Below, one piece after another: positions 1-23,757 of a stretch of DNA of 64,000 bases. Position 1 is the first letter of the stretch; each line of letters begins with the position of its first letter. Source of the DNA: Lytechinus pictus (Eukaryota); NCBI RefSeq assembly GCF_037042905.1, contig NC_087245.1:24492001-24556000 (forward strand), given 5' to 3'. The position numbers and the translations under genes are program-made. The notes below the pieces were generated by a model, which worked only from the letters and a program-made list of their open reading frames with translations, was not told the DNA's origin and did not search any database.

Positions 1-104
1 GCAAGATCAGCATGTTTAGTGTCAAATGTAAATGTAAAGCTTAAATCTCTTTTCAAATGTGAAATGTAAAATTGCTTTTGTTTCGTTTTTATCAAAATTA
101 CATA

Positions 105-327
105 CGGTGGTGCTCAAAAGTTAGTGAACCTCATCAGAAAATGAACATATTTAAAATGTTCACGTTCTGTCATGTTTTAGCTATTTAATTGTTAAGTCAG
201 GTGATAAAACATCACAAGCTTTGTTTCTCTGGGCTCGCCGAACATAGAAGTGTTGTTGTCTACATTCAACACTCGGTACGAAGGAGTGCATTTTGTGGTG
301 GGGTTCACTAACTTTTAAGCACAATTG
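105..327. mobile_element. Tc1/mariner-type MITE
   Basis: Terminal inverted repeats (TIRs) cggtggtgctcaaaagttagtgaacc / ggttcactaacttttaagcacaattg, with TA on both flanks. Confidence 0.75.
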
Positions 328-599
328 TAAATTAATCACACGATGAAGTTCACTTGTAAAATTCGAACACAAATGATAAAAAACACTGCAAAACATCGAT
401 TAATAATATACAGTAATTTATTAATTGTTCCGAGCTCTTTTTATTTGTCTTTGCATTAAAAGGGATATTTTATTGTTGACCAAAATATCAAAGAAAATTC
501 TCAATTGTCATCTTTTTTTTTTTACAGTAGGCACTCTTATATCATTATAACGTAACAGCCTCCATCTATTCAATTTGCTTCTATCACGCAAAAAAATGC

Positions 600-1874
600 T
601 TTATTTGTTTTGATAATGAAATGAAAGTACTGACATATAATAACGTTCGGCGTATCGGCCTATCACAATGCTTATAAATGTTCACAGAGTATGAAAAATA
701 AAACCATGTGTAACATTTGTCAATTTAATCGGTTAACTTAAGGATCTTTCTGTAAGTTGCATTATTTTATACTTCATGTTTGATATAACACTGCTATTGA
801 TCAAACATCAATTTTATGTGAAAGGAAACAAGCAGCGTGGAGTTCTTCATAAAATTTGGTTTTGGTGTATTTATCTTTATATTATTGTCATTTTCAAACA
901 TAGAGCATGAAATTAAAACCGGTGAGGATAACTTAAAATAGCAATATATTCTATCATCATAGCACATCTGTGTTTTAAATGGGACCATACCTCTAGCAAG
1001 TTTTATTAGATTTATATACCAAATTTGTCAGACTAATTACACTTTTTAAACTTCATGTTATATTCACAAATAGCAATCTTTCATATACAGCTTATTTGCA
1101 TTTGAATATATACATACCATCTAGTACTTATTCATTAATATAAACATTCGGGGTGCCTGCCTCTAGAATAATTATGTATTTGTGTGAATTCAATATGGTT
1201 GTCTAAAATGTCTATAAAAGTAACACGTTTATCCGAACGGAGCAAACATACCCTAATCTTTCATTAATCTATCCCAGGACGGTATATCTCTGATAAATAT
1301 CATTACAATCAGAGTAAGCCAACAGAGATGATGCAGCTTTTATTTAAAAAAAAACACCTAGATTACAAATATTCTACTTTCTAGTATTCAGTTATTTTGT
1401 TTCATTTCATACAATGAAGGAAAGGGACAAAAAAGTATCAAAACTGCAGCTAAATTGTACACTTAGACTCCTATCAAGTGAAACCGTTTAATATTCAAAA
1501 ATTCTTCTATGAAAACTAGAAAAGTATACTTCTACATTATTTTGAGAAATTCAAACATGCCTTTATATCGTGTTATGCTGGAATAATGTATTCAGTCGTA
1601 GGCGTTAGCTGCTCACTGTAAGTCATTAGTATGAACATCATCTCTTCCTTATATCCGGATGATTTTTCCACCGTGGATCATTAAATATAATGGATAATGG
1701 AATTGGGAGGGAAGAGGAATAATTTCGAAGCCAGTGATCTAATGAAATATGGCAGACGGATCGAACGAAAAGGTCAGGAATGTGTTTAGTCTTTGTTGTA
1801 AAAAGGTGTCGATGGTGTAGCGATCTGCAAGTAATAATGACAAGAAAAGAAAGAAAGAGAATGACGAAATACAT
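600..1874 (-). other. Putative terminal 3'UTR exon of the neuropeptide gene (3' end uncertain)
   Basis: Strong acceptor cctctctttccttttaattttttCAG (1877-1875) pairs with the donor at 2720 (846-nt intron). Minus-strand AATAAA candidates at 1339-1344, 1002-1007 and 600-605. Confidence 0.6.
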
Positions 1875-2269
1875 CTGAAAAAATTAAAAGGAAAGAGAGG
1901 TAAAATTTACAGGCAAAAAGTAAAAAAAAATAGTAATCAAGTAAATAAATTTTCAAAAGACACATTTCTCGTCAGATTTCTTAGGCATGTTAGGAAATGA
2001 TTATATTTTGCTGATCCCTAAGTTGTTAAAAGAAATGACAGTCAATGCATCAGTGGAGCCAGCGAATAAAGGACAAGTCTTCAGCCTGGGGTCCTTTCGG
2101 TCATTGACAGTTTTGTTTTAGTGGGACGGGCGCGGATCCAGGGAGGGGGATGATGGGAAAAATGGCGAGAATTTTATTTTTGAAAGGCTCTCATAGTACA
2201 CTTTCATCAATTTGAAACACTTTAAAAGCTTGTGTAAGAATCAGAAAAGATAGTAGACAATTTTTCACT

Positions 2270-2464
2270 GCTGACAGAACACTGCTCTCACAGCGGGCCA
2301 TGCATAACCTAATGCTATATTACTCTTCTCCATTCTAAAACGTCAAGCGCCTGACAATACTTCAGAAGATCAAAATTTAAGTATGTGGTATGACTCGGCC
2401 GAGGATCGCACTTACGACCTCATGTTCATGAGGCGGGCGCTATACCACCGAGCAACCATGTCCG
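2270..2464 (-). mobile_element. Decayed tRNA-derived SINE (MetaSINE-like) in the 3'UTR intron
   Basis: Reverse complement shows a tRNA-like head (ggttgctcggtggtatagcgcccgcctc...) followed by ggccgagtcatacca; related copy at 52398-52620. Confidence 0.6.
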
Positions 2465-2728
2465 ATAGAAATCGGTGGTAAAATAATTTAAATCAAATTA
2501 TTGACACGACATACTTTTCTCAAAGCATTATCTCAGTTAATGTTAATGGCATGGAAACCAATTAGCAGATTTCAAAATACCCCCCTCTCTCTCTAGCAGT
2601 GTCCTTGTAATTCTTGATAAGCACTTGTTCAATTGTTCAATGCAGAGACGGTAAAGGGAATGGACAGTGAAGGACGCCCTCTCGGCCATCTTTGATTGGA
2701 TCAATCTTCAAATCACTCACCTGCTTTA

Positions 2729-2862
2729 TTAGGACTCCATCTGCTGGTCTGATCGCTTGCCACTGTTCAGGAGATTCCTCAGCCTGTTCACATTCTTCAT
2801 CATTCTCCAGTTGTCAACATTAGCAAGGCCAAGATGTTTTACTGATCCTCTTTTCGACATAG
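2729..2862 (-). CDS. Neuropeptide precursor, coding exon B (mature amidated peptide + C-terminal extension)
   Basis: Acceptor tttcatttgtctacAG (CAG at 2865-2863). Phase matches exon A (G+CT = Ala), reading (A)MSKRGSVKHLGLANVDNWRMMKNVNRLRNLLNSGKRSDQQMES-stop (TAA 2731-2729). KR and G-KR processing sites flank the peptide; donor CAG|GTGAGT follows after 2721. Total CDS 303 nt = 100 aa + stop. Confidence 0.92.
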
Positions 2863-4339
2863 CTGTAGACAAATGAAATAAACGTGTTCATTTTTAGACA
2901 TAGTATACTTTTAAGTTCCCAGCTGGTTTAAAAAAATCTAAGCTCATAGCTAGTTCTGGAATAATTATAAGGCAATTTAAAGAAATTAAAAAAAATATAT
3001 ATCCAGTTCAAATAAATTCATAAAACTAAACTAGAAAAGTAGAAGGTACATATTCATGAAAAAAATACGAAATGGTGATGGCACCCTCTTGAAATATACA
3101 CTTCTGATCCTTTGGGGGATCAATTCGATTTGTCATCGGTGAAATATTTTAGCACATTGTAAGTAATACCTCATCTTATAAGAACCTGAAAGAAAAGTCA
3201 TTATTTCATACTCCTTTTTCTGTGAATGTCGTCGAAATGGCCAAAAGTGTTTATCCATTCGGTCAACTTTAGTAGTGACAAAGACATGTACATTTTATTT
3301 TGCCAGGAGTGTTTATCCATGGTTTTGGTTTATCGAAGTTGTGGTTTGTTATTCGTCCTTTGGTAGCATCTTTGGACGTTTCTGGAAATGATTTCTGACA
3401 CATTTGAAGTTATTAAATGTGCATCAATGTGAACCACCCCAGCCTGTCAAATACACATTAATGGCCCTTTAATCTCTCGCAATTCTAACGGTGTTACGTT
3501 AATAATTTGCGTCATCGAAAAATACACAACATGAAGTTCTTCCAAGATTCAGGGTGTTTTTTGGTCTGGGAGGGGGGGTTCAGACTTACGAGTTTATTCA
3601 ACGGCTCTTTCTTGGCAACGTAAAGAAAAAAATACGATTTTAAGAATACTGGTCTTTTTCTATTTTCTATCTGAGTTCCCTATCGTAAAGCTTCCCCAAT
3701 GATCTTAGGGCTGTTTTTGTTTATTTTGCTTTTACGATTGATTCCACGTGGTTATTATTTACAAACAATCGTACAAATCACTGAATTTGCTATCAATGGC
3801 ACGTTAAAACCTTCTGTTGTAACATTCTAAACCATCATAATGTGATTGGCCGAGGGGTATATGTCCTAGAACTAGACACGGAGTAGCACCGACTAAAGAT
3901 CAAAAACATGATTTTCATGACTGATTGCAGATTTTGATCTTTATTTTGATCACTTTGGGAAACAAACATAATTATGTTCCTTACGATAGCTGTTACACAA
4001 TGGATGATTATCATATATTTATGAATCTATGTGACTTGTGAATAACACTTCCTTTTTTTCATTTTTTTTAAAAGTTTTTTCCAAGATTAAACGAGCCTCT
4101 CTTCAAGCAGTACTTAAATTTGTTCAAACAGCTTCGTTTTTCCTATAACCTTGGAGTTAAATACGACAGAATATATCCATTATGTGCCTCATGGTTGGGA
4201 ATCATTATGCATAATGAGGCATTGTGTTCAAGATTATTCATCGTATTGTATTGTAATATAGATTATGATAAAGGAATAGGATTATAATGCGTCGAATCGA
4301 CCATGCTGATTGATCAAGTCAGGTCAGGTTTTCCTGCTA

Positions 4340-5955
4340 CTGGTAACCATGTAACCCAGTACTACCTGTTTCATGGCCGGGTGGTCCTAAACCTAATATC
4401 TGGTGAGTAGGTGAACACCTAAAACAGGATTTGGGACTTACATTTATACCTGTCAAACTGTGGATGAGTAGCTGGTCAGCCAATGGCTACCCAAGGCAGA
4501 TAAAAACTGAAAATCGTACTGCTTTATTCAAAACGAATTTGATAAAAATTTGTACAGACAGATTTCAGAATTCGATAAACAGTACTATGAAAAACACTAG
4601 AGCGCGGACATGAAGAACAGATAGAGTCAGCAAGGCAGTGGCCTATATATGTTGGGCCAGTTGTAATGCTACAAACGTAGTATTTCATCGGAATCCCCAC
4701 TTTCATGCTGTGAATGTCAAGAAACACACTGAATACGGAACAATAGGACCATGAACATGACTGGAAGCTGGAGAATCGATGAAGACGGATTGGACGGTAC
4801 AATAATGGAAAACATCGAAATTTTAAAAACCAACAGGCTTGGGATGGGAGAGATCACCGAACATACCACTTTGAATACCTTCGAAATTATTTTCAGAATA
4901 AAGCAGAAAGGGGCAGTATTCGTCCTTTCAGGAATGCACACGCAGTAAATGTTGCGACTTATAGCATTTCTGACAGATTGATCGTGATGAACCTAAATGC
5001 CTAATCAACAAGAGATACTCTTCCAACCAGCCAATGTCAAAAAAGAAGAACACGGAATTCTCTTATACTCGAAGGACATTTTGGGAAACAGAATACATAT
5101 GACCACCTCATCATTTTGAGAGATTCCAAAGTGTGAGGAAAAAAAGTCAAGATGAAAAACAGATCTCCAAAATATTGCCAGCCAATAAATTGACGGCAAA
5201 TCTGCAAACAGATTGACAGATTTGTCAAAGATTCAATCAGATTGGAGAACAAAAGTATTACTTTAATTCTAAAATATACATGGCAAAGATGCAAAAGCAG
5301 ATAATGCAAATAGAATAATGGAGCGATGGCATATCAGCATGAGACGAGCTCACCTTGAAATTCCAGCTATGAACTTTGTGAGGACAATAAGTATAGAAAG
5401 AAATCAAGATTAGATGCCTAACCAACAGTATTTCTAAAGAACTTAAAAGGGGAAGTGTAAACCTATTGGTGAGATTATGTGTAAATTTGGATTTACGAAC
5501 TGATGTAAATGCTCACATTACCAAGGAAAATGATGAAACAAACATGACCAAATACTCTTCTAAACTTTAGGGAGGATTTGCCATACAAATTTTAGGTGTC
5601 ATAAAGATGGAGAAAACTTAAAGTTTACTAGGGTCTGATTAATTTGGATTTGAAGCTAGACCTCTATAGGCCAAGGCCGCAGAGTATAGATGTGAAAGCG
5701 TTTGAACGAGTGAACTCTGTCAAACTATTTGGGGATGTTTAAATATCTTGGAGTAAGTTGGAAGAATCAATGCCCCCGGAATCTGGAGAGGTGGGGACAG
5801 TGAATATAACACCAAACCTGTAAAAAAGAAAGGAGTTAGTTAAGGATGTCTACTTCCTCCTATCCTCTTCACTGTGTATGCAGATACCATTATACTGGGA
5901 ACGCTTGGTCACTGCCTCACTGGGCGGAATCGTCATCGGGAGCAGAATCGGTTCT
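4340..5955 (+). mobile_element. Degraded RTE-like LINE (endonuclease and reverse transcriptase remnants)
   Basis: Endonuclease-like remnant (IEILKTNRLGMGEI) near 4.8 kb. RT motif KGVS*GCLLPPILFTVYADTII at ~5829-5895 followed by GGIVIGSRI. Multiple stops and frameshifts. Confidence 0.7.
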
Positions 5956-6884
5956 TAGTTTACAAGTCTAATGTTAATGACAACAAATAAATGCCACTGT
6001 GGCTGAGATGATGCATTCACTCCTTGCAATGTGGAAAGAACTTCGTAATGAGTTGTGGCTGTGGAGAAGAATGGAATGGAATGAAGAAAGAGAAGTATCC
6101 TAACGAACGTTGCGGGAGCGGAAAATGGCCCGCTCCTCACCGCTCGCAATATTTTGTGCAGCTCAAAACTCTCGGAGCGGTAGAAGGGACCATCAGCGGT
6201 GGCCGAGCGAATACGGCGTTGCCCTAACGGTGGCCAAGTTTTGTTAAACGGTGGTGAACGGTAACGAGTGGTGATGATTTTTTTTTACCGCTCCAGCAAA
6301 GTTCTGGCGGTGTGACCACTACTTTAACTCGAGTTAAGAGTCTGAATATGCCGCCTACTCACGCCTTGTGTACTGAATTGAAACAACAAGTTTTGTATGT
6401 GCTAGTCTTTGCGTGCAGTCACACTTGTTGATCAAAATTTCAATCAGGGTCTGTGCCTGCAGACTAAGTTATGGCTGTTTAAGACTATTGCTCCTCAAAA
6501 TCGTATATAAAAATTACAACCTCATTTCAAGATTGTTTATGATACCTTCCGGACAATGGAAAGTGAATGAAAGATTCATAAAACTGTCAGTCTGTGATAA
6601 CGCCACCCAGTCCAAGGTTAGGGGGGAGAGAGAGAGTATAATGGAATGCTCCTTCGGTCAGAATTCCAGGGCTAAGCACAGCCTATAGAACGCCCCTGTT
6701 CTTTGCTTCGACTGAAAAGACTAATATAAACAGCCACTTGAATGAGAGGGTGCCTTCAGGTCACATGACTTCTGACGTGTTGATATTGGCGCCACGAATA
6801 CATTTCCTAGCCCATGGCCGTGCCAACTGTATCTTTTTATCAAGTGTTTCGTAATTAAGAACCAGTGCCGTTATCATATTTCAC

Positions 6885-7450
6885 GTCCATTCAATTGAAG
6901 GAAATTGACAAACGTTTCCTTCAAAAAAAAAATTGATTACCATGTTCGTCAGAAGAAACCATGGTGCTGTATAGATCACTTTTTCTTGAAAGTACATAAA
7001 ACATGAAATCCGGTCGAAGTTACATAACAGATTAACGTTGACCTCGGGAAAACATTGATAAGACAAACGGATATGCCATGTTTTCCTATTATAAAAATGG
7101 ATTAAAGGTGATCTTGTTGGACACATGGATATGCATGTGTCCAATGGGATAACAGTCATTGTCAGGAAGCCATGTTTCCCGTTAATAGTTCTTATGTATT
7201 TAAAAAAAGTGATCTGCACTGCACCCTTGTTTCAACATTTGTCCGAAAGAGTAGGTGTATACGTTGAACTGTAAAGGGAAATGAAGTGAGTCAAAAAATT
7301 CCAATTCCGTAGAAACGTCATTGGAAAAGTGGGAAAAGAATGAGAAACAAACGGCAAGAAAGAAAATCATCGGATCTTCTGAGATGCTAAGAATTGTAAA
7401 CAGCATTGAAAATGGATTTATGGATAAGATTAGGAGAGACACAAAATATT
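6885..7450 (+). pseudogene. Possible highly decayed MULE/SWIM-type transposase fragment
   Basis: Broken reading frame gives LLDTWICMCPMG followed after a frameshift by KPC, resembling a SWIM CxCx(n)CxH finger. Confidence 0.25.
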
Positions 7451-9333
7451 GATGTTTGTTGGTAAGATCACACAGGCAGGGAGCAGACAGGTATCGTATT
7501 TTCGAAAGTTGATGACGCATGACAGTTCACATGATTGGCCAGGGCTCCCCGGGAGACTGGAACTGGTTACCAGCTTTTCCTCACTGTGACGCAGTCTAAA
7601 CAATCACAAATCTATTTTCCAAATCATTGTATATTGCATACTACACACAAATCTAAACTTCGAAAGTTGCAGTAAATTACATGGTCTTATTTTTGCCTTG
7701 ATCTGAAAAGATTTATCAAGGCTAGCTTCAGTCCTTTGCTTTATTGGGGGGGGGGGGGTGTGATGTCAAACCGCTTCCTGGTCATTCCCCTTTTCGTCTT
7801 AAAAAAAGAAGATTCAACGAAGTTTTCGATGTACTTCATTTTCAACAATAATGTCCTGATAGAAAGAATGACTGTTTAACCATTTTCATATCATATGAAA
7901 AAAATGAAACAAAATAAAAGAATGTAGGCAAACGGTTTCAATATATATTGATAGATACAATGATTCTTAGCATATGTAACTCGTAAATCATCATGAATGT
8001 GCCTACTTCATCTGAAATTTTGAAAAATTATAATCTCTTTATCATCGTTGAGATTGGTTATACAAATGACAATATTAACATATCATGTTTTAAAGATATA
8101 ATTTGGTGATAAAATGGATATTTAATTACTATCTGTACACACTATGCAGCTGCACAAGTGTCACAAACGAGTATATGGGACCTCATGAAAACATGACATT
8201 AAACACAAGAAAGCAAAACTAACATTATTTTGCTGTTTTATCACTATCATATTCATTCAAAATCGCCTGTGTTTCCAGTTCAAGATATTTGTAGTTTTGC
8301 TGAATGTAACATTCATCGGTAAAGCATTTTGGCAGTCATTTATTTTTATATTTCATTGTCATCATCTTCACCCGTCAAAATTCAAAGTCATAACCATGGT
8401 TGATTGCTTCCCCTTCCAGACGCCAATGTTGGATTGTGATCTACCCTTCCCAACAGATCCCCAGGGGGTTTGTCTTTTGTATTAATCTAAACACAAGATC
8501 ATGCATCAATCTTCTACAATACTCCTGGTATTTATTTTCGCTTAATACTACATCTCCTCTCTCTTCTCTCTCTCTCTCTTTATTCGATTGCTACGACTAT
8601 ATGGAAAACTCGAACGGACTTCGCCCAGAGCGTCCAAAGGAAATTCCAAGTTTTTCCTGTATTCACCTGCGAAAAACTGTTTCCTTTTTCCCGTTCCTTT
8701 TGAATTTGCATCACCTGGTCTCACAGGAGGCCGATGGATTAAGGTGAAGTCGAGGGTAGTTAGGCTAAACGTCAGAAGTTCAAATATTTGTTTTTTCTAT
8801 ATCAAACTTTCCTCATCCATTTTGGATGCCTCGAACGTTTCCACGGGTTGTATCTGTGTTCTCTGCATGCTTATCAATCATTGTCGCACCATAATTCTCA
8901 GGTCTCTTTTCTTTGGTTTCATTTCCCATTTTTATCAATTTTATTTCTCTCTCTCTCTCTCTTTCTCCCTCTCCCCCCCCCCCCCTCTCTTTCGCCTATT
9001 TCATGTCGATCGATATTTTGTATTTCCTACCCAACATCTGTTCTTGAAGCTAATTCACTTACACGAAGTTCTTTTCTCGAATCTTGTGAATCAACGAATG
9101 TGGTAAACACGCATTCTTCATTCATATAATGGTTGAAAGATGTCTAACACTGGGCAGTTAGTCCCCCCCCCCCCTCCCCACCACCCAGACACCTTGGGAC
9201 GATTTTCGAAGAGGAGGTACTGGTTTCGAGAAACAAAAAAAAAAGGGTTTTTGGTCCAAAATGAAGGTTCTTTCGTTTCAAATTTCATACATTTTATCAT
9301 ACCAACCTAGTTTCAAGATTTTGCTGCCTATGG

Positions 9334-11145
9334 TCATAGGAGGATCCAGGGTTGGCGGAGCCAAAAAAGGGGGAAAGAAAGAAAGAAAAAGAAGATAAAA
9401 TAGAGGAGAAAATGAGGGGAAACATATGAGAAGGAAGACGAGTGAAATAAGATGAGGGGAAGACTTGGAAAATAATTTGTAAAAATCTGTAATGTCACTA
9501 TAAAAGTTTCGCTCGCGCTTCGCGCTCGCATTGCCTTTTAGGTGATTTACATATCTTGCTCAATATGGAGCCTTAGATATCAAATTTGAAAGTCAATACA
9601 CAAAACACATTTCAGCTCGCAAATCGAACTTTCATGATTTTGTGTGATTTACAAATTAATTTTTAAAAAAGTGGTCTGTTTTATGGTCTGAATACTAACA
9701 TTTTCTGCTCGTGCTGCGCGCTCACAAAATTTGATTTGTCGGGTACCTATTATTTTCCTGTGTTCCATAAAGTTATCAAAATATCCCTATTCATGTCAGA
9801 TTGTCAAAACGTATCAGCTAGCGCTGTTCCCTCACATTTTGATTGGTGCCTTATGTATATTTCAATATTATTTCTACAAGAAACTACTTAAAATCCCCAT
9901 TTTATGACAGTTTATAAAAAAATTCGGCTCACGATTTGCGCTCGCATTGATTGTTGAAAATATATTAACTCATGCATCTTGTTCATAATTACAAAAGTGT
10001 TTTAAATATCAAGTTTTCAGGCCATAATAATAGCAGATTTTGCGCTCTCGTTAGGCTTATTAGATTGATAAATAAATTTAGTAATCAAAATGTACCTTTT
10101 TCAGAATGGAATATCGACAATTTTCATCTCGCGCTTAATAAGAGAAATAAGAAGATTTTCATATGATGACATATCAATGTTCTTAGAATGTCCCGGTCCT
10201 ATGTCAAAACTCAAAGTAATAATGAAACATATCAGCTCTTTTTAACTGTGATCCATATCCACCTCACAATTTTCCTACAAAGTGCTTGAAATACAGAGCT
10301 TAAATTGACCTTTTTGGGGATCGGAATATCAAATCTTTTAAGCTCGCGCTTCGCGCTCGCTTTATTGATTTTCATGTTAAAAAAAGGTATTCTAGGTCGA
10401 AATCTGAAACACGCGCACGCATTTTTATTTAGATACGCGGCTTGTTCTCTCTTTGATTTATTATCCAGTTTCATATCACAATATCAAACATTTTCTGCTC
10501 GCACTTTGCGCTCGCATTATTAATGTAGGAAGATTTTCAATTACTCATCCTTTTCATGATTTACAAAACATGAATAGAGTGTCCCATTTTTAGATGTAAA
10601 TCTCGATTTTTTCCGCTCGCGCTTCGCGCTCGCATTAATTGTTTTATTGTTATATACTTATCTTTTTCACGATTACAAAAAGTGCCTAGAATTTCCATTC
10701 TTCAGGTAAAAATATTAACATTTTCAGTTCGCGCTCGCATTATATTATTATTGAAATATGTAACATCTTCATGGCTAACTGCAAGCAGCCCGTTAACAGA
10801 TCCTTTTTTTATCAGATCAAAACGTATATTAAACATTTCTGTTAGCGCTTTGCGCTCGCAGTAATTATTAAGCTGGATACACATTTTGCTTAGGATCACA
10901 AACATTGCCCAGAATGTTTGAATTTTAGGACAAAATACATGAAATTAAAAAAAACTCGCGCTTCGCGCTCGCACTATTTAAGTAATGATTACGAGATCAC
11001 TATATATTTCTGTTGATTTATAAGAATAAAGCTTAGAAGTTACTATTAGGACTACCCCTTGAAACAAACAAAAATCTAAGTCGAGCGGCCGATCGGGGAA
11101 AATGTGGCTGAAAAAAATCCGCCCCCCCCCCCTTTGGCGAACATA
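9334..11145. mobile_element. Non-autonomous hAT-like element with internal degenerate tandem array
   Basis: Begins cataggaggatccaggg and ends near ccgccccccccccctttggcgaa. About 12 copies of GCTCGCGCTTCGCGCTCGCA, mostly ~100-120 bp apart. Confidence 0.6.
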
Positions 11146-11759
11146 CGAAGCACCCACATAAAAATCTTGGGGTGCTTTAGATCAGATCCCGCTTCCCAAG
11201 TCCATGTCTCCATCCCTCACCTAAAAAGATGGAAATAAGAGTATAAAATTTGCATGGACTGACACAATATTGTATGACGTAAACAAACATCTATAATTTA
11301 TGATATTGTGGGCACGATTTGTCAAAGTTTTGATATATTTTATTTTGTCAATTTTTTGTTGTTCGTCCATGGTTAGAATGTCGTGCGCTGACTATGTAGT
11401 AATAAATCTGCACTCCAATTGGGGGATCTTACGCATGAAAATTACCAGAGGTAGACATAAAACAACACAACTTTCTTAATGAAATCGGACATTGGAGTAC
11501 AAAATAATGTTTGAATGATGGAATGTTAAGAAGAATTTGTCGAAATCTTTACCATTTATTTGTTACGAAGATTAACATTTTGTTTAGTAATCCATAAAAC
11601 ATAAAGCATCGGAAGTTTCTAAGCGGGGAGGTTTGGAATCATGCATTCCGTTTTGTTAATTTAGTGTATTCCGCGATCATTTTTCCCCAGCTTTAGAATA
11701 TTATTTTTTGTTATTTTAGTGTATTCCATGATTATTCCAAGGTTTCAAATTTGAAATTA

Positions 11760-12100
11760 TGATGAGGGATTGATGGACGGTGAACAAGAGAATGCCCAAG
11801 GGCGAAATATGTTGCAATCAGCAAAGTTTTGGTTTCTAACAAGATATCCATGTGGATGTATTCCGTTCATCCTGGCTGGGAGCATGATGAGAGCCAATTC
11901 CAGCTCCTCATATTTCCAGACGATTTCCATTTTGTTTGTGGTTTATATATTTCGACTTTCTTTGGAATTCAAAAGAATATCCAGAAATTAGCATCGAATA
12001 CAAATCATTTATGGACATTGCAGTGTTCGTGCAGATGTGAGGTAATCAGGGGACGCTAGAGATTGGTTTTGCAACCGTTGAACATGTGGTCATTGACATG
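11760..12100 (-). mobile_element. Decayed L1/Tx1-like ORF2 C-terminal remnant
   Basis: Minus-strand IHPHGYLVRNQNFADCNIFRPWAFSC resembles the zf-RVT region (LHGxLxTNxxL...C). Confidence 0.35.
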
Positions 12101-12918
12101 GGTCTTCTTGCTATTTCTCCTTCCCACCCCCACTTTCAACATCTCTCTCTCTCTCTCCTCTATCTTCCTCTTTATCTCCTTATCTCTCTCTCTCTTACTC
12201 CGTTTCCTTCCTTCTCTACCTTCCCTACCTCTCAGCCACTTTTCTTTAATTATCTCTTCATTTCACTACAATCTACCACTACTGATACGACGGTGACTAA
12301 TCGTTGATCAAGAGGAATTCTTTGCATCGATATTTTGGGGTGTTGTGACTTGTTTTAAAATTCTGTGTATAAAGTAAAACATCTCCGTATCCCCGTTAAT
12401 TGAATGGTGATAAACTAAAGGGCTATCCCCCATAATATCACCAATTTTTGTCTAGTTAGGCTTTACGGATTGGAAATCAGCATCTTCTTCTGACATGTCC
12501 TGTACATGTAGGTTTACATTCATATCCCAATTACTCCACTTTGAGATGAAGTAAAATCTAATGGCAAGGTTGCAAAATGTCTTCCTTGTGGCCTCATGGA
12601 CTGTCTTTATATTACAGGAGGTATACAGAAGGTCTTTGATGCTTTAAAGTGCCCTCTGTACGGTAACCGTGAAGCTTGCCCATACTCCTTCAGATAAGTT
12701 TTCTAATTTTGAGAGTGTTCTTGTCCCTGTCTGTTAAAGACGCTTTTGGGGTCAGCCTAGAATAATCATAAATGCACACCAAAGAATAATTTTCGACATT
12801 CGTTTCTCGGGATTTGTCATCCTTGATAAATTATCCTTTCCTCGAGGGGGCTTTCCCCTGAGGTGCCTACATTTCCTCTTCATCGATGAATACCTTTCCT
12901 ACATTAATTTTGTATCAG

Positions 12919-13064
12919 GGGAGCGTTTCATAAAAAGACTTTATCCGACGAGTCCCATTTTATCCGACAGTCACCATAGTAACTGTGCTTCTCAGCCAAT
13001 CAAAATCCAGGAAAGATGTCAGATCTGACAACTTGTCGGACAATAATGTTGATGAAACGCTCCC
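12919..13064. mobile_element. PIF/Harbinger-type MITE (family B)
   Basis: TIR GGGAGCGTTTCAT / ATGAAACGCTCCC with 3-bp TSD CAG; second copy at 58402-58558. Confidence 0.8.
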
Positions 13065-13069
13065 CAGAT

Positions 13070-13750
13070 CATCTTGGAATCTTCGTACGTGTCACATCTG
13101 GCAAATACTTAAAAATTCAAATAGCTTAAATGGGAAGATTCCCTTATATGATAAATAACAATGGTCCGAGTACATCCCCTTGTGGAACTAAAGTTAATAG
13201 TGAAGACTTTACGACTGTTTCATTAAAGTTAGTACTGTGTATTGTCCCTTTCCCACTTAGCAGTGTCTGGCCATGGATCTACCATTGGGGTAAAAAAATG
13301 TTTTGGCTGTCTGCAGTAGACCAACAATTTCTAGTGAGATATACCGAATATTTTTTTATGATCAATGGCATCCGATAAGATTGCTTCAATACATAACTTG
13401 GGGATGCATGCATATGAAACATACAATAACATTTCACTTTCGGAAAGGAAAGTTAATTCCATATTATTAACTCGAAATAATTAAATTCACAGGCATGTAG
13501 CTGTAATCACTTTGTATCCTAATAGACATCTGAAACTAAGGCAACAATTTTAAACAGTTTGTGGGACTTGAACTAAAATTTTGTTAGAAACGAAACATTA
13601 TATGCACTGAATGGTTTTTATTCCGCACACAGGTAATGCTTTAGTGAGAAAACTTGTCAATGCCTACTAAAACATTTTAAAAAAGTAGATTTATGACTTC
13701 AATAAAAACCTAATTTCTTCCCAATATGACTCTTAAGTTGAATAAGGTTT
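13070..13750 (-). mobile_element. Degraded CR1/L2-type LINE RT fragment
   Basis: Minus-strand [18 protein letters not shown] (~13130-13190), matching the RT motif [28 protein letters not shown] near 13360-13380. Confidence 0.65.
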
Positions 13751-14213
13751 TAAGTTTGGTGAAGGATTCAACAGAGAGCTAATAAAGGCATGAAACGTAC
13801 ATTTTGAGAAAACATAATTAAGACATACGTCCCTTTGGGGATATGTCGGAATTACCGAATTCCGTTAGATTTGGAATTCTCCCCTCAGGTAATAAATACT
13901 AAGACGTGATTTTTTTTGTAATACTCAATGGAATACTGTCTAAGGGATACAAGAACATTTAAAAATGCAATATAGATTGAGTCTATATCTCTATTGTTTC
14001 TGTTTCTTTATGGCAAATCCAGAAATTGTGAAGATCGTGACAAAACCAAATAAACCACGATTTATTTACATTCAAACCATAATATATCATATTCAAATTA
14101 AAAATGAAGTATGAAGAAGTTACACAGATCTTTACAATGGACAGGAATATGGAAAGCAAATAATATCAAAATACGATTCTCAATTAATTTCAATTTCATT
14201 AGCTACAATAGCT

Positions 14214-14411
14214 CACACTCCTAAAATGTTGGGCAGCATACTGTCCACACAACAGTTGGTTAAAAATTCATCCAACTCTGGGTAGCTTTCAACCAATATG
14301 TAGTTTTCACCCAAAGCACACATTATTGGTTTAAAACTACCTAGAATTTGATAAAGTTTTGATTAATTGTTGTGTGGGCGGTATGTTGCCCAACATTTTT
14401 TTAAATGTGTA
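14214..14411. mobile_element. CACTA/EnSpm-like MITE
   Basis: Inverted ends cacactcctaaaatgttgggcagcatac / gtatgttgcccaacatttttttaaatgtg; related copy at ~26000-26237. Confidence 0.6.
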
Positions 14412-15793
14412 ATGCCTGCATTAAACATTGATAGTTTGATATCTAAAAAATATATAGCAATTTTGATGCATGTTCTTTTATAAATCATCCTTATCCCCAA
14501 ACCATGACCGGTTATATTTACTTATGACCGCTCAGCACCGGTCAGAAACAGTTTTACTACAACTTCGTTTCGCACATGATATCCCAGTCTATCGTAAGTC
14601 ATGCGCAGCCTTACCAACACCATTCTTAATGAGTACCTTGCCAAATAGTTCTTACGTTTATGGGTACAAAGTACAAGCATAATATTATTCAGTATTATGG
14701 AACTTTCGAATTTTCATAATTTCCTTTGCAAAAATAACATTACAACCGAAATGCTAAATATATCCTTCAAGATTTTTTTTCTCAAATATATACTTTCAAT
14801 TTACACTGTTCATGATATTAGAGATTATCTTTTTTTTATTTCTAGTTAATTATTTTTACATAACTACAGTTGTTTTTATTTCATTTAATTGTTTAGATCA
14901 CATTTTCTTAATTTTTACTATGGCGATAACAGCAATCGAGGTTTGAAGTTTCCTAAATCATGCAAATCATGACATGAATTTCCCATTAGATAAATTCCTT
15001 ATGTCTATGTATGATGAATCGCTGATTAAAAAGGAAAAAAAGGATTTGTTTTTAAGTCTTGATTGATGACTGGAAAGCATTTTCCATGTTTTCCCCTCGG
15101 CTGATCAAAAGAAAAGGCAAACGCAAACAATTTTCGTATAATGCGAGTTAAAAGAAAACGAATCCTTCAGTTCGTGAACAATAATCGTGCATTTTAAAAG
15201 ATTAGCTATACTATAGCTTCAGATTCACTGAATATTTTAAGAGTGTAATTCGAACTGAAGTTTTTGGGATGTAACGATGAGAAGATGGATGGATTGAAAT
15301 ATCAAATTTTGAAATGATGCAACTGGAAATATAACAAGAAAGGCATGCAGAGGGAGATGTTTATGAGAAGAAAGATCAGTAGAAAAACTAAAATGTATAA
15401 GTCGAGTTCTAAAAGAGATGTTAACCAGGTGAAAGTGAATAGAATGCACAAGATTTGTTCCGATCCCCTAATCAGAAAGTATTATCGTGTACGAATTTTG
15501 TTGGATAATGAAAATTGAATTCGGTGAGAAATACAGATAATTAGACTATTTCAAATTACAATTTCCTCTGTAAAGATTTGTAGGCTTATCTTTTATTTCT
15601 GGCAATATTTCTGTTTTATAATGGCATTATTCGTACATACATGTAAGTTATGGGATTATGTTTAGACGTTTCATGCATATAAATTTGATTGTATGATTGA
15701 ATCAGGGGGACTATATCATTTGAGATTTGTGAAAGAAGTGATGGTTTAGGAAATAGGGGAACGCAATATACAGGGGTGATATATGGCGGATGC

Positions 15794-15952
15794 ACTGGCG
15801 GATCCAGGGGGAGGGCACAGCCGGCCCGTGCCCCCCCCCCCCTCCCATATGAGAAGCAAAATTAAAATTTGTAATGTAAAAATGCCATTAAAACAGAGGT
15901 GTGCCCCTTTTTTTGAAAGTGAAGACCTTTGGAAAATCCTGGATCCGACCCT
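15794..15952. mobile_element. hAT-type MITE (GGCGGATCCAGG family)
   Basis: Ends cactggcggatccagg / cctggatccgacc; homologous to 40085-40294. Confidence 0.7.
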
Positions 15953-16099
15953 CGGCGGAGGAGTAACGGATATTGGTTGAGTAGCGCTGTCGTATTCTGT
16001 TTTTTCTTTGGAAATTCTCCGATATGTATCTTGTTCATTTTCTGTTTCCTTGAAATAATTTTGAACCATGGAAGAATGCCATCATCAAGGGATAATGTA

Positions 16100-16575
16100 A
16101 ACTTGTAGAAAGTATGTTCACTATCTTTTTAATTTCTTCTGATGAAATGCCCGGCAATCCACATCCTTTCCAGTGTACATTCAACCATGAATGAACAATG
16201 TCCCCTTCAACTACCCTGCCTAAGGACGGATTATAAAATTTTTTTTTTTCAATATGTTGCTGCCGTCTTATTTAATTCGCTCCCTTGTGATATAGAAAAA
16301 TGCACATCCCTCCATGCATTCAAAAACACTGTAAATCATTAAATTCTGACTGTCATACATGTTATTACACTTAATGATTCCATGATACTTGTTGATTCAC
16401 TCTATATGTATAATGTATTCTGTTTTACTTAATTATAATTTATGTTACATACATTGAATTGCTATGATGTTGAGTTATTTGTTAAACTGCAGGGCGCCAT
16501 TGGAAAGCAGTTTTGCATAACTGAACACCGTGCAGTATAAAATGAAGTAAATAAAGAAATAATAAATAAATAAAT
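16100..16575 (+). mobile_element. 3' end of a CR1/L2 LINE
   Basis: ORF 16142-16342 LQLPCLRTDYKIFFFQYVAAVLFNSLPCDIEKCTSLHAFK matches the CR1/L2 ORF2 C-terminus pattern, followed by a cagggcgccattggaaagcag tail and (AAAT)n. Confidence 0.75.
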
Positions 16576-18390
16576 GATCGAGAGTTTTAGACCAAATGGA
16601 AGTAATTAACAACCTAAAAAGCGATAAAATGCTTGGGGTTCGACGTATATGTGATAGGGGTGCCAATTGGGCATGCGTTTGATGGTCAAAGTAGTAGCGT
16701 CAGACACACGAAGAACTGCACCTTCCAGAAAACCTATAATTGGCACGGTGGTATGAGATATGAATTTCGTATCTTGATATGTTAATCTCATGAAATATCA
16801 TTCGGCCTAAACCTGAATCCTAACAAAATTTATGTTCTTTTCCTATTAGTAATTACAGTCGAGTACTCCGTGCTCCATATCTCATTATTTCTGGGATCAG
16901 TGTGTGATTTCATTCCTTTGTATTCAGTGAATTATCCTGTTTTCGGATTATTAATACTAAACATAATAATAATAATAATAATTTTATCAGAAAATATTCA
17001 ACACGGTATATTATTTCTAATTCAGTATTAAAACACCGTTGATTGTTAATAAGAAAAGTATCGCCTGCTTGTAAGCGCAGGCAAAACTGTACACAATTTA
17101 TTTACTTAATATTGAGTATAAAAATATAATTCGTAACATGGCTTATATAGAGATCTTGTATAGGGAAAACGCCATACCAAGGTTTGGAAAACTTTCAATC
17201 AATTCCAAACTGATTGTGCTCCTTTAATTCATGCATCCGGAAAATCGGAAACATAAACCTTTACCAGGCTTGAGCCCCGTAATTCGGAGAGTAATTTTGT
17301 TCTCGCATTCAATTTTCTACTGGATCTATTTTCAGTACGCTATGATAGGCATTGTTACTCATGGGGAATCAAACGTATCGCATGGTATACGCATAGCAAA
17401 TTATTATACAGAGAAGAATATAGCAATATCATGATTAGAAAAATGAGAATAATGGGCGGAAATTAGAGGCGTTCAAAAGCGATTTTAATAACTGCCGCAG
17501 CATCACCTATTCACGATTAAATGTTAACACATAATCTTGTTGATTATGAACTATACATGCACTGCCTTGCTCCCTCGAATGTGCTAATTCATCCGATGGC
17601 ACACCACACATGATGAAAGAGGGAAAGAGGATACGAAAAGTGCAATCGTTAATGTTGACTTAATTTGGAAAATAATGTTTAACATTTATGTAAATATTAC
17701 AGCCCCCCTATCAATGCTTTTCAATGGAATTCATTTTTTACAATACAAACTGATTTAGGTCTACATCCTGTTACAATGATGATTAATTATCAATTAACAA
17801 CTGTAAAGGCCACCACACACGAAGGTTAACTTTGTTCAATTTTCGATGTTACAATAATGGCCCAATATAATAAATATCATTGAATCTTTACCAAAACTAT
17901 ACAGAAGAATCAAAAAGTCAATATGATGTTAATTTATAGATAAAATTCGTTTGAAAGATGTGCAGTGCAAACAGTTTTCGTGACAAAAAGTTTAGACAGT
18001 GCAGCGTGCCTCCTATGACCATAGGAATTGACATGCTGTATTCCACCTGACTTAAGCTAACTTTGTCTCGAAAAGTAATTCATAATTAGTCATTCCATGT
18101 ACTTCAGAGGATTTTTTAACGTAAAATATGGTACCAGTAAAGCTGAAGGTATTCTGATTTTTTATTATGGTAAAAGTTTGTATTATATATACAGGTTTGT
18201 TGTAAGTGACATCGTTATTTATCTTGTAGCTTCTACGCCAGTAAGATTTTATCAGATGCTTCTGTGAGGTTTCCAAAATGCAATTGGCTTTCATTAGCTC
18301 ATATACTCAGGTACATCATCAAAATTAAAACTTAGCCAACCTAGTAGTGAAACATTTATTTAATAGTTATCTAAAATAAGCCGTCACACC

Positions 18391-18565
18391 TAGTAGATGA
18401 TTCATAAAGTTGTTCGTAAGATACCAATACACTTATGCACGACAGGTGATCCTTTCTTGTGCTGAATGATATAGTAGTAGTTGACTTAATAGAATCTAAG
18501 AACAGGTTCCAGTTGTGCATGAAGTCATGCGTAACTTTACGAACAGCTTTATACGACACTCACCT
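18391..18565. mobile_element. Harbinger-type MITE family A, decayed copy
   Basis: Inverted ends ttcataaagttgttcgtaag / ttacgaacagctttat, shared with copies at 41.3, 44.7, 50.3 and 58.2 kb. Confidence 0.65.
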
Positions 18566-19042
18566 GAACGTTTTAGCCAGCGCATGCTGATGATTGTGGC
18601 AAGTCGTTTTCTAATTTAATCCTATTTTTTCATATCAAGAACTGCCTTTTGCTCAACAAAATTAATTGATTTAGAAAATGATTCCTAGATGTCTTGTATA
18701 TAAAAAAGAAATCCTCGACAAAGAATATAAAGAAAATCCTATAAAGAAATCGGATTAAACATGTTAAATGAGAAAGGCTTGCTTTGCTATACGCTCGTCG
18801 GAATACGCTTGCTGAAACCATGGGTGTATAAGAGACATCCTTGTTTGAGAGCCTCTTTACTTAATGGCCCCATGTTGAAAGAAGGGGAGGGGGAGGGATG
18901 TTGCATGTGTTTGAGTGGTCCGTCTGCACAGTTTTCATCTCTTATGTGTTGCTAAACTGATCCAGACATGTTTTTTTTTACGACAAACAGTAAAGGCGTT
19001 ACACCTCTACGAGTTATTGCCATGAAAATATCACTTGGCATT

Positions 19043-19401
19043 ACGGTGGCGTAACAAACGGGGTGCAGGGGTCGGGAACGTTTTATTTCGAAGAAATGTA
19101 TTGGAATGTAACCGAAAAATGATATTCTTATAAATGGTATTGTAATTTGATTAATCATGTCTCGTATTTAAATGTACAGGCTAGCGCTGGCTGGGTTTGG
19201 AGACTTTGAGGGGAATGGGTAATATTAATAAAGAAACAAAAGATTTGAAAAGTAAATTTAGAAATATCCATCATGAATTATTTAATAATTATGAAATAAT
19301 GTTATTGAGAGTAAGTTCCAACATTCTTTAATACTTTGACGAAGTTACATGAATTTTGTTACCCCCTCTCACCAGAAATACAGGTACTTGTTACGCCCCT
19401 G
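19043..19401. mobile_element. hAT-like MITE (GGCGTAAC termini)
   Basis: Ends ggtggcgtaacaa / ttgttacgcccctg. Confidence 0.5.
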
Positions 19402-20842
19402 CTTGGTAATTTACTATGTCTATCATGTCTATTGCATGACTAAGCTACCAATAAGCGAAGAAAGATGAAGGGAGATGAACCGTTTCTTCCCACGCTACTG
19501 TAAAGAATAATTTAATGCCAAGAAAATATCACTCTAGTCGTAAAATACCATTCTAGTCATAAAATCACATCCTACCACGCCTGGGATGAGTTTAGTTGAC
19601 GATCCGCTCAAACACTCGCCACAATTCATATCATATTTGTTATAACAATCTTTAATCATTTTGCTATCATTGAATATATCTTCTGTCGAACAGATGTTTA
19701 CATTGAAGACGGCATGGGGCTGGAATGTTGTAAATATTACATCTTTGGGCATCTCATAGGTTTCATGGTAGTTGTTTTACCCAATTAAGAATGAATGTTT
19801 TAACAAGATTTAGTAATAGCAAGCAACCATATCATCGATGGCTATAGATCCTCTCTGAGGGACGAGAGAATAGAAATTTAAGCCCACCTGAAGAGTTTTG
19901 GCGCATAGCTGGATTCAAACCCTAATTTGACTCTGTTTAGTCCATAATGCCAACTGAAATTCGTTCATCCAGAATAATTTGTAGTTTTCAAATTTGCAAG
20001 TTTTAGGACTGTACTTCACATGATAGTTACAATCGTGTGCACTACCAAGTGTAACGTAACACCCCCACACACACACAGACACACCCACACGCGCGCGCGC
20101 ACACGAATGGTTTACCGACATGAAATACGAGGATAAAATCTTAAAAAGTATTTTCATATCTAATGAAGATAGCATCCATGCTTACTCCCTACAGGAGGTA
20201 ACATTATGTCATACAGTGTGTTCACATAGCGGACTATATATAGATGTGATTAACACTGATAAATGTTCGAATCTAACAGTGTGAAGATAATTCCACACTG
20301 TGAACATACTGTGGAATGACGTGTTCATTCTAGCAGGGTTTCTTTTACGAGCGTTCTCTCTTTTCAATGGCCATCAGGTTTAGGCAATATAACTTTCATG
20401 CGTAAGTGAATTAAGAATTGAGTCAGTTCTAGAAGCGTTAGATGCCAAGAAAGTCATTTGGGAGTGAATCCTTGGTGGAAATAGTTAAATTGTACGAAAG
20501 GGTACAATTTAACACATGTGCACCTGCGGCATTTTCTCCGGTCTTAACTTTTCAGAGGGCATAGGGTTAGACTTAGGATTGTAATAAAGTTTTTGGTTCA
20601 GAATAATTTAAAGATTGTGAATAGGGTTTATTTAGTTTTATGTTTTGCTTAACGTGCGGATTTTCCATCCGGTCACCTGAGCAATTGTCATGGAACCGTT
20701 TTAAAGTTTATCATCGTTCCATCGAACAAGTTTGAAAGTAAATGTTAAGTGGATCGGAATTTATAATGGACTGCTGATTCTGCTGTAAGGGCAAGATAAG
20801 TTAATAGAAAAGGGGTGAAGGACATTGGGTATGCGGACTCAC

Positions 20843-21011
20843 CATGTTCTAGGCTTTCAATGATTTCGTATATCTCCTGTTCATCGAGTGCATTCTGTGC
20901 CGCCACGCCTCTCCTGTACTCGTCCTGGTCGAGTCCGTAGGCTTGACACGTCCACGCCACGCACACGAGGACGGCCAGGAAAGCTAACACAGCCTGGTAG
21001 ATACACTTCAT
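20843..21011 (-). CDS. Neuropeptide precursor, coding exon A (signal peptide + acidic pro-region, residues 1-56 plus 1 nt)
   Basis: ATG at 21011 in context GAAGAAG-ATG. Translates MKCIYQAVLAFLAVLVCVAWTCQA (hydrophobic signal, likely cleaved after CQA) then YGLDQDEYRRGVAAQNALDEQEIYEIIESLEH. Ends at donor CATG|GTGAGT (GT at 20842-20841), phase 1. Confidence 0.92.
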
Positions 21012-21205
21012 CTTCTTCGATACGTGTTAATCACTGCGATGACGCTGGCGATGCGAGTGTGAGGGATTGGGGAACTTGCGGCGGAGCTTGTGGCAATTGG
21101 ACCTGACGTTGGGGGTCAAATGAACTTCGACGTCTGCGGGTGAAAGACTTCAGATGTAGCTAGTGAGCGCAGGTATAAATGACAGCCTCTCGTGATCTTA
21201 ACCTT
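21012..21205 (-). other. 5'UTR part of exon A
   Basis: Long pyrimidine tract + acceptor (ctctctctctttttctcgtcaacaCAG, CAG at 21208-21206). No ATG between it and the start codon. A weaker alternative acceptor lies at 21136-21134. Confidence 0.6.
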
Positions 21206-21794
21206 CTGTGTTGACGAGAAAAAGAGAGAGAGGGAGATTTTTTTTACTAAAGTAGCAAAGACATTCACAATGTATTTTATATATAAATTACGATGTAGGA
21301 AGCAAATTATCAGTTTACTTCACCCTGGTATCCTATCACACCTTGAAATAACACACCCTCACATTTAATTACACCGCACACATACGCACAAACTCACAAC
21401 AATTCAAACTATACCATGAGTTCTCTTTCCCTTTCGATCTATCTTTATCACCCTCTTTCTCTCTCCATCTTTCTTTTCCCTTAAACACTGAATATTTCTC
21501 ACTGGCGCATATCTCAAACCTACACTTTTTCGCTATCCAAAGGGCTGTTGAAAACTCAAGAACGAAATCACCCGGGTATAATGGTATACAACACACGAAC
21601 TTCGGAAGGTGGTTTGTCCAAAATCCCATTCGCGAGGAAGAAAATCCTTTAGATTATCCCAGCTCTTTCTCCGATTTCCTCGACAAGTGGCAGCGAGAAT
21701 CTAAGACATGTGTAAGCCCTCAACGATGCTGTGAAAAATAATGCCACCATCACCACCTCCTCTGTTACTCTTAAACAATGAATTTTGGATGCCA

Positions 21795-23711: not shown

Positions 23712-23757
23712 ATAGATAATAACGATGATGATGATACTAATACCATTACTACTAATG

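What the first reader, a model, noticed from the sequence alone, without database searches (positions are those of the whole stretch)
2762..2848. Mature peptide looks like a class B (secretin-family) GPCR ligand
Seen: a 29-residue, cysteine-free, amidated peptide whose C-terminal half has hydrophobic residues at helical spacing (MM-KN-V-NR-L-RN-LL). Established: class B GPCR ligands (PTH, VIP/PACAP, CRH/DH44/ELH, PDF) are helical peptides of similar size. By eye, SV....L...VNRLRNLL echoes PTH (SV....L...VEWLRKKL), and the NxxRxLxx-amide end echoes CRH/DH44. Inference only: this could be an unassigned echinoderm member of the PTH/glucagon-like or CRH-like systems.
Basis: inference. Interest (0 to 1): 0.7.

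Follow-up and report, generated by a model that had tools for sequence, protein, structure and literature searches.

The report
Sea urchin orphan helical neuropeptide
This real, spliced sea urchin gene encodes a precursor predicted to release a strongly conserved 29-residue helical neuropeptide that may act on a secretin-type hormone receptor, but its resemblance to parathyroid hormone is no better than chance and its receptor is untested.

Summary
The peptide is real. It lies on the minus strand (2848..2762) between KR and G-KR in a spliced three-exon gene for a 100-aa precursor. It is 25/29 identical to a Diadema orthologue, against 14/32 in the spacer. From recall, it is probably the catalogued orphan Np10/Spnp10; I could not verify that. 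AlphaFold2 predicts one helix, and residues 16-29 are modestly amphipathic.

The family claims do not hold up. The 7-identity PTH echo arises in 7-16% of random 34-mers. Echinoderm CRH and PDF motifs are not met. Pfam, PDB and Foldseek find no peptide-hormone family.

A secretin-type receptor remains my best guess (about 0.4), on size, helicity and variable C-terminal residues. Class A is close behind (about 0.33). Sea urchins have a PTH/glucagon/PACAP-type receptor with no ligand found in what I read, and insect PTH is under 12% identical to PTH. So this is a cheap candidate to assay (about 13%). The scan had not noted it on other DNA.

The parts
20843..21206 (-). Exon 1: 5' UTR (reaches at least 21206) and codons 1-56 plus one base; ATG at 21011
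   Evidence: Contigs X1 (20843-21022), X15 (20843-21186) and X5 (20843-21206); tblastn of P0002; translation
20940..21011 (-). Predicted signal peptide, about residues 1-24 (cleavage site judged by eye; no SignalP run)
   Evidence: Kyte-Doolittle peak 3.2 for 11-residue windows starting at residues 7 and 9; 19/24 identical to Diadema
20843..20939 (-). Acidic spacer (9 acidic, 2 basic of 32 residues); contains an RR pair conserved in 3 of 3 sequences
   Evidence: 14/32 identical to Diadema
2863..20842 (-). Intron 1, 17,980 nt, GT..AG, phase 1, inside Ala57 just before the M-S-K-R that precedes the peptide
   Evidence: Contigs X1 and X15 run from 2863 directly into 20843 (record coordinates); X5 loose end matched exactly; splice sites
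2721..2862 (-). Exon 2: end of spacer, KR, mature peptide, G-KR, 7-residue tail, stop (2731-2729)
2849..2854 (-). KR, predicted prohormone-convertase site
   Evidence: conserved in Diadema
2762..2848 (-). Predicted mature 29-aa amidated peptide (P0001), net side-chain charge +4, predicted helix
   Evidence: 25/29 identical to Diadema, core V3-L27 24/25
2753..2761 (-). G-KR, predicted amidation and cleavage signal
   Evidence: conserved in Diadema
1825..2720 (-). Intron 2, 896 nt, GT..AG, in the 3' UTR 8 nt after the stop codon
   Evidence: Joint 1824/2721 in 6 raw reads (3 start places) and in contigs of X1, X5 and X15; splice sites
401..1824 (-). Exon 3, 3' UTR of about 1.4 kb; AATAAA at 445 and 422, just upstream of the X15 contig end at 401

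Best explanation
This spliced sea urchin gene encodes a 100-residue precursor that is predicted to be secreted and cut at KR and G-KR into one amidated 29-residue neuropeptide, which likely folds as a helix and most likely acts on a secretin-type (class B) receptor of a family that sequence cannot assign. Shown: gene structure, transcription, and selective conservation of the peptide. Inferred: entry into the secretory pathway, convertase cleavage, carboxypeptidase trimming and amidation (standard prohormone logic). Also inferred, by analogy with class B ligands: two-site binding, in which the amphipathic C-terminal helix (M16, V20, L23, L27 face) docks on the receptor's extracellular domain, the N-terminal residues engage the seven-helix core, and cAMP rises. 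The gene is probably the orphan catalogued as Np10/Spnp10 in S. purpuratus (recalled, not verified).
For: Splicing and expression. Selection on the peptide: 25/29 versus 14/32 in the spacer, Fisher p 0.001. Organism B's exon 2 differs at one site, a synonymous third position of V20 (2789), while its 3' UTR contig carries 28 differences and 8 gaps. Helix H4-35 or H4-34 of the 44-mer, pLDDT 84-93 over residues 11-30. Amphipathy sits in the C-terminal half (p 0.017-0.03 for 16-29; none for 1-15). The last two residues differ between the two species while V3-L27 is 24/25 invariant, unlike class A ligands with an invariant C-terminal message (established knowledge; only two sequences). The ESM Atlas ranks DH31 (0.94) and PDH (0.92) precursors first for the whole precursor. 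Echinoderm class B receptors take more than one ligand family: CT-type peptides activate AjCTR, AjPDFR1 and AjPDFR2 (PMC12638048 passages).
Against: No class B family hit in Pfam, PDB sequence search at E up to 10 or Foldseek. The ESM hits are mixed: Frey 0.91 and gastrin 0.90 follow, and only 3 of the ten best share a family, which the tool reads as 'probably wrong'. For the peptide part the first hormone family is the class A NPY/PP family (0.85), ahead of glucagon/VIP (0.82), all below 0.9. CRH and PDF motifs are not met. AlphaFold2 readily draws helices for short single sequences. Amphipathy is not significant for windows 14-29 or 1-29. Helical 25-36-aa amidated ligands also exist for class A receptors (NPY, galanin, orexin B, QRFP; recalled).
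Confidence: 0.42

Rival explanations
1. It is the same processed neuropeptide, but its receptor is a rhodopsin-type (class A) GPCR, for example one of the ambulacrarian receptors without a known ligand (galanin/allatostatin-A, QRFP, neuromedin-U types).
For: These receptors are stated to be present in ambulacrarians, with no precursor found in brittle stars (PMC5627052 section 2.6). The peptide-part ESM search ranks NPY/PP above class B families and also lists neuromedin-U. The length matches galanin, and the middle of the peptide resembles galanin by eye (recalled, untested).
Against: No RFamide/RYamide-like C-terminus, and the last two residues vary between species. No Pfam or PDB hit to any class A ligand. 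It lacks galanin's N-terminal Trp motif (recalled).
Confidence: 0.33
2. Sub-case of the best explanation: it is a shortened CRH/DH44/ELH-type paralogue acting on a CRH-type receptor.
For: Amidated, helical, with N and L-L near the C-terminus. CRH-type genes have multiplied in ophiuroids. By-eye likeness to short insect diuretic hormones (recalled).
Against: 8 of 8 complete brittle-star CRH-type peptides are 40-45 aa, have Asn at -8 and end the precursor directly after G-KR/G-RR; 7 of 8 have Leu at -5 (counted by eye). This peptide is 29 aa, has Arg at -8 and Asn at -5, and carries a 7-residue tail; only the hydrophobic -4 position agrees. An unchecked scan note reports a separate CRH-type precursor in the same genome (e1-9937113).
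Confidence: 0.08
3. Sub-case of the best explanation: it is a divergent PDF/DH31-like ligand or a cross-ligand of PDF- or calcitonin-type receptors.
For: DH31 and PDH precursors are the top ESM hits. L8-A9, D12 and M16 loosely register with the start of ophiuroid PDF peptides (by eye). Echinoderm PDF receptors accept CT-type peptides.
Against: 6 of 6 ophiuroid PDF peptides begin with an N-D-F ... R-S motif right after KR, in two-peptide precursors; neither feature is present here. It has no Cys pair and no C-terminal Pro as in CT-type peptides (features). The ESM scores probably reflect generic precursor layout.
Confidence: 0.12
4. It is a cationic amphipathic host-defence or membrane-active peptide rather than a receptor ligand.
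For: Signal peptide, acidic spacer, KR and an amidated +4 helix is also the layout of many antimicrobial peptides (established knowledge).
Against: 24/25 core identity to the Diadema orthologue is unusual for antimicrobial peptides. Amphipathy is weak and partial. If the recalled Np10 identity is right, Np10 marks a neural cell cluster (PMC11817407 passage).
Confidence: 0.06

Closest known systems
S. purpuratus Spnp10 / Np10 (Rowe and Elphick 2012, doi 10.1016/j.ygcen.2012.09.009; paper not held; identity recalled)
   Same: From recall: the same precursor layout and nearly the same peptide, listed as an orphan from a radial-nerve cDNA library. 'Np10' is named as a neuropeptide gene in a neural cluster of Heliocidaris crassispina (PMC11817407 passage).
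   Different: No call showed the Spnp10 sequence, so the identity and the number are unverified. No receptor or family assignment was found in the papers searched.
Diadema uncharacterized protein XP_071482444.1 / XP_071497039.1 / XP_072175897.1 (P0002)
   Same: Orthologue: 104 aa, same layout, peptide 25/29 identical, KR and G-KR conserved.
   Different: Unnamed in the record; the spacer and tail diverge.
PTH-type ligands (vertebrate PTH/PTHrP/TIP39; insect iPTH, PMC7224569)
   Same: Size class and predicted helix. The iPTH precursor also runs signal, KR, amidated peptide, G-basic-basic, C-terminal extension, but that layout is generic.
   Different: The identity pattern to PTH is at chance level. 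iPTH's conserved N-terminal Ser-Asp and Pro at -4 are absent. Intron 1 is phase 1; I recall phase 2 at the comparable place in vertebrate PTH/PTHLH (unverified).
Echinoderm CRH-type peptides (ArCRH, 41 aa, PMC4772807; ophiuroid CRH1-4, PMC5627052)
   Same: Single Cys-free amidated peptide near the precursor's C-terminus; hydrophobic residue at -4.
   Different: 29 versus 40-45 aa; no Asn at -8 or Leu at -5; a tail follows G-KR.
Echinoderm PDF-type peptides (PMC5627052 supplements)
   Same: About 30 aa, amidated, Cys-free.
   Different: No N-D-F...R-S start motif; one peptide rather than two per precursor.

Membership tests
Neuropeptide precursor (general) | Expressed, spliced gene with an N-terminal hydrophobic signal | tested here: met
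   (hydropathy only; no SignalP)
Neuropeptide precursor (general) | Conserved peptide between dibasic sites with an amidation Gly; conservation above the spacer | tested here: met
   (25/29 versus 14/32, p 0.001)
Neuropeptide precursor (general) | Mature amidated peptide detected in neurons | not testable with these tools
   Needs mass spectrometry and in situ hybridisation
Class B (secretin-type) GPCR ligand | About 27-45 aa, helical, amphipathic C-terminal half | tested here: inconclusive
   Length met; helix predicted; amphipathy significant only in the chosen window 16-29
Class B (secretin-type) GPCR ligand | Detectable similarity to a class B ligand family profile or structure | tested here: not met
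   Pfam 0 hormone families; PDB phmmer/hmmsearch only aldo-keto reductase and PIH1 noise; Foldseek 0 matches. Short peptides have low power in these searches.
Class B (secretin-type) GPCR ligand | Activates a secretin-type receptor (cAMP) | not testable with these tools
PTH/glucagon/PACAP-type | Sequence pattern shared with PTH beyond chance | tested here: not met
   7 or more identities with one gap occur in 6.9% and 16% of 3000 random 34-mers (two compositions), 51-99% over 10-30 ligands. Not decisive: iPTH is under 12% identical to PTH.
PTH/glucagon/PACAP-type | A cognate receptor exists in sea urchins | tested here: met
PTH/glucagon/PACAP-type | Ligand occurs wherever the receptor does (starfish, hemichordates) | tested here: inconclusive
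   Relatives found only in Diadema and one Logan fragment. The core motif is absent from the supplements searched for starfish, brittle star, sea cucumber and crinoid. Exact-word searches miss divergent orthologues.
PTH/glucagon/PACAP-type | Shared intron phase and synteny | not testable with these tools
   Intron 1 is phase 1; the PTH gene's phase is only recalled. No other convincing gene in the window; no genome held.
CRH/DH44/ELH-type | 40-45 aa mature peptide | tested here: not met
   29 aa versus 40-45 in 8 of 8
CRH/DH44/ELH-type | Asn at -8, Leu at -5, hydrophobic at -4 before the amide | tested here: not met
   Arg at -8, Asn at -5, Leu at -4 (compared by eye)
PDF-type (echinoderm) | N-D-F...R-S start motif; two peptides per precursor | tested here: not met
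   6 of 6 ophiuroid peptides have it; absent here
Calcitonin/DH31-type | N-terminal Cys pair (CT) and C-terminal Pro-amide | tested here: not met
   Features from PMC12638048 passage; the peptide has no Cys and no Pro
Galanin/allatostatin-A-type (class A) | Family motif and receptor activation | not tested
   By-eye likeness recalled only; Pfam gave no hit

The most novel reading that the evidence does not exclude
This orphan peptide is the missing echinoderm ligand of the PTH/glucagon/PACAP-type receptor, diverged beyond sequence recognition as insect iPTH is. It would give the parathyroid-hormone-like system its first ligand in a calcite-skeleton-building deuterostome.
Probability: 0.13. Interest if true: 0.75.

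Novelty: already known. Interest (0 to 1): 0.35.

Why it matters
As it stands this is an orthologue of a probably catalogued sea urchin orphan neuropeptide, so the gene itself is ordinary. Its value is as a test candidate. Ambulacrarians have a PTH/glucagon/PACAP-type receptor, and a survey of brittle stars found no precursor for it. The insect ligand of the same receptor group was found by deorphanisation, not by sequence. One synthetic 29-mer on a handful of receptors would settle the question. A hit on the PTH-type receptor would fill a gap between insect iPTH and chordate PTH/glucagon/PACAP and allow a test of a role in skeleton formation.

Tried and rejected
Searches without a family. Pfam on 5 sequences: no hormone family, only HEAT_PBS and HMMR_C below cut-off. 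PDB phmmer and 2-sequence profile: noise only. Foldseek of the helix model: 0 matches. ESM Atlas: mixed leads; structure hits are generic bacterial helices.

Orthologue hunts. Three protein searches and one whole-library phmmer gave only P0002 and the exon-1 fragment P0004, so the profile has two peptides only. The metagenome scan gave L001, a chance match on the strand opposite a bacterial membrane-protein ORF; rejected.

No run was on record as an RNA holder; expression rests on the lays, where X24 is recorded as RNA-Seq and X1, X5 and X15 are spliced contigs of guessed or unknown type.

No genome is held. An ORF list, a crude exon scan and Rfam found no neighbouring gene, so synteny was not tested.

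Co-folding with a receptor was not run: no class B receptor sequence was available. Alignment to real PTH, CRH or PDF sequences was not computed; published echinoderm sequences were compared by eye, and the PTH pattern was tested against random sequences.

Literature. Ten full-text searches found no paper holding the peptide's 13-residue core and none assigning this peptide to a family. Supplement searches for its core were empty in five papers (one file of PMC11521371 was not searched). The supplements of PMC6209648 and PMC11817407, which may list Np10, were too large to read, and Rowe and Elphick 2012 is not held.

The idea that this is the sea urchin's missing CRH was dropped.

Full report
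Observation. The finding is on the minus strand. Translation of 2762-2848 (-) gives GSVKHLGLANVDNWRMMKNVNRLRNLLNS, 29 residues without Cys. It is flanked by KR upstream and by G-KR, a 7-residue tail and a stop downstream.

Gene. I laid four runs on window 1-20000 and 19500-39000. Exon 2 (2862-2721) is joined across an 896-nt GT..AG intron to a 3' UTR exon (1824 to about 401) in 6 raw RNA reads of X24 (3 start places) and in contigs of X1, X5 and X15. The same contigs continue from 2863 into 20843. The X5 loose end matches the window once, exactly, at 20844-20873 (0 of 100 shuffles). Intron 1 is 17,980 nt, GT..AG, phase 1. The spliced frame gives a 100-aa precursor: a hydrophobic signal of about 24 residues, an acidic spacer (9 acidic of 32), KR, the peptide, G-KR and a short tail. 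AATAAA at 422 lies just before the X15 contig end. The stop is 8 nt from the last junction, so nonsense-mediated decay is not expected (established knowledge).

Conservation. One full-length relative was found: P0002, an uncharacterized 104-aa Diadema protein (E 2.8e-15). One unnamed exon-1 fragment, P0004, also turned up. Identity to Diadema is 19/24 in the signal, 14/32 in the spacer, 25/29 in the peptide (24/25 for V3-L27) and 3/7 in the tail; peptide versus spacer, Fisher p 0.001. In organism B the one change in exon 2 is synonymous. The peptide is therefore the selected product. Two further protein searches added nothing, and the single metagenome hit was an antisense chance match.

Is it known? 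From recall this is the orphan Spnp10 of Rowe and Elphick 2012. That paper is not held (I saw only its reference line). PMC11817407 names Np10 as a neuropeptide gene in a neural cluster (passage) but shows no sequence. PMC6209648 says 14 of the S. purpuratus neuropeptides lacked similarity to known ones (passage). The supplements of both were too large to read. A full-text search for the 13-residue core found 0 papers. So 'already catalogued' is probable (about 0.75) but unverified.

Shape. AlphaFold2 gives one helix over nearly the whole peptide, from the single sequence (H4-35 of the 44-mer, mean pLDDT 75.6) and from the two-row alignment (H4-34, 73.1). That is weak evidence for so short a chain. 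M16, V20, L23 and L27 fall on one face. Against 20,000 shuffles the moment is significant for residues 16-29 (p 0.017-0.03, two scales, both species), borderline or not significant for 14-29 (0.05-0.17), and absent for 1-15 and 1-29. On the Eisenberg scale it is not significant (0.16-0.21). Window 16-29 was chosen after looking, so this is modest support.

The PTH echo. Allowing offsets and one gap of up to 3, the peptide reaches 7 or more identities with 6.9% of 3000 random 34-mers of average composition and 16% of 3000 Cys-free helix-rich ones. That is 51-99% once 10-30 ligands are tried. I could see equally good by-eye matches to DH31, short insect diuretic hormones and galanin (recalled) and to ophiuroid PDF, which shows how cheap they are. 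This removes the evidence but does not refute the idea. Insect iPTH activates PTH-type receptors with under 12% identity to PTH, PTHrP or TIP39 (PMC7224569 passages). A receptor labelled PTH_GCG_PACAP is listed for S. purpuratus, a starfish and an acorn worm (PMC11521371 supplementary file 10, part 2 of 3). A brittle-star survey found no precursor for PTH-, galanin-, QRFP- or NMU-type receptors (PMC5627052 section 2.6). PMC7251081 found no PACAP homologue in 40 echinoderm transcriptomes (passages). Against the idea: I found relatives only in sea urchins, and the core motif is absent from supplements for starfish, brittle stars, sea cucumber and crinoids, though these were exact-word searches.

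The CRH echo. Nine ophiuroid CRH-type precursors were visible; one is truncated and was left out. In the other 8, the mature peptides are 40-45 aa, all have Asn at -8 and a hydrophobic residue at -4, 7 have Leu at -5, and all end the precursor (counted by eye). ArCRH is 41 aa (section read). This peptide meets only the -4 position. An unchecked scan note reports a separate CRH-type gene in the same genome, which removes the 'missing CRH' argument if correct. PDF: 6 of 6 ophiuroid peptides start with an N-D-F...R-S motif in two-peptide precursors; not met. Calcitonin/DH31: no Cys pair and no terminal Pro; not met.

Libraries. Pfam gave no hormone family. PDB sequence searches at E up to 10 gave only unrelated proteins, and Foldseek gave nothing. 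The ESM Atlas put DH31 (0.94) and PDH (0.92) first for the whole precursor, then Frey and gastrin, with only 3 of ten best hits sharing a family. For the peptide part the first hormone family was NPY/PP (0.85), then glucagon/VIP (0.82). These are leads at best and do not separate class A from class B.

Mechanism. Shown: gene, splicing, expression and selective conservation. Inferred with high confidence (about 0.9): secretion, cleavage and amidation to a 29-mer acting as a signalling peptide. Inferred with low confidence: the receptor class. I commit to a secretin-type receptor with two-site helix binding and cAMP output (0.42). The reasons are the size, the amphipathic C-terminal half, the invariant core with variable last two residues, and the tolerance of echinoderm class B receptors for more than one ligand family. 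Within that figure, PTH/GCG/PACAP-type is about 0.13, PDF/CT-type cross-ligand about 0.12 and CRH-type about 0.08. Class A is 0.33, an antimicrobial role about 0.06, and the rest is other receptor types. It may work like a class B ligand, but I do not file it in any class B family.

Papers seen as passages only and not decisive: PMC10508912, PMC5860471, PMC5818035, PMC9793003, PMC6586643, bioRxiv 10.1101/129783, PMC11521371 main text, PMC4772807.

Verdict. A real, conserved, probably already catalogued orphan neuropeptide. The class B idea is plausible and cheap to test but has no sequence support beyond shape and size. Interest 0.35; 0.75 if it proves to be the ligand of the echinoderm PTH-type receptor (probability about 0.13).

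Noticed in passing
window 33188-37847: Foldback-like element: long inverted arms (608 nt, 96% complementary, 3444 nt apart) built from 160-330-nt tandem subrepeats; many contigs of runs X1 and X15 lie on it, so it is repeated elsewhere.
   Followed up: partly
window 31682-32617: Minisatellite of about 38-nt period, 21.6 copies, degenerate.
   Followed up: no
window 32858-33025: The last 168 nt of a 3258-nt contig of run X15 match here with no differences; the rest of the contig was not listed on 19500-39000. Possibly the end of a neighbouring transcript or a repeat.
   Followed up: no
window 20910-20915 (- strand), precursor residues 33-34: An RR pair in the spacer is conserved in 3 of 3 sequences; it could be a second cleavage site releasing short acidic fragments.
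   Followed up: no
window 20940-21011 (- strand): The signal peptide is unusually conserved (19/24 to Diadema, including a C-x-x-W-T-C-Q-A end), more than the spacer.
   Followed up: no
window 1-64000: No other convincing protein-coding exon or Rfam family was found in the window; the scan was crude and short exons could be missed.
   Followed up: partly
L001 1-1674 (-) and 2770-4533 (+): Unrelated bacterial contig: a 558-aa membrane-protein-like ORF and a secreted repeat protein; its match to the peptide was an antisense coincidence.
   Followed up: partly
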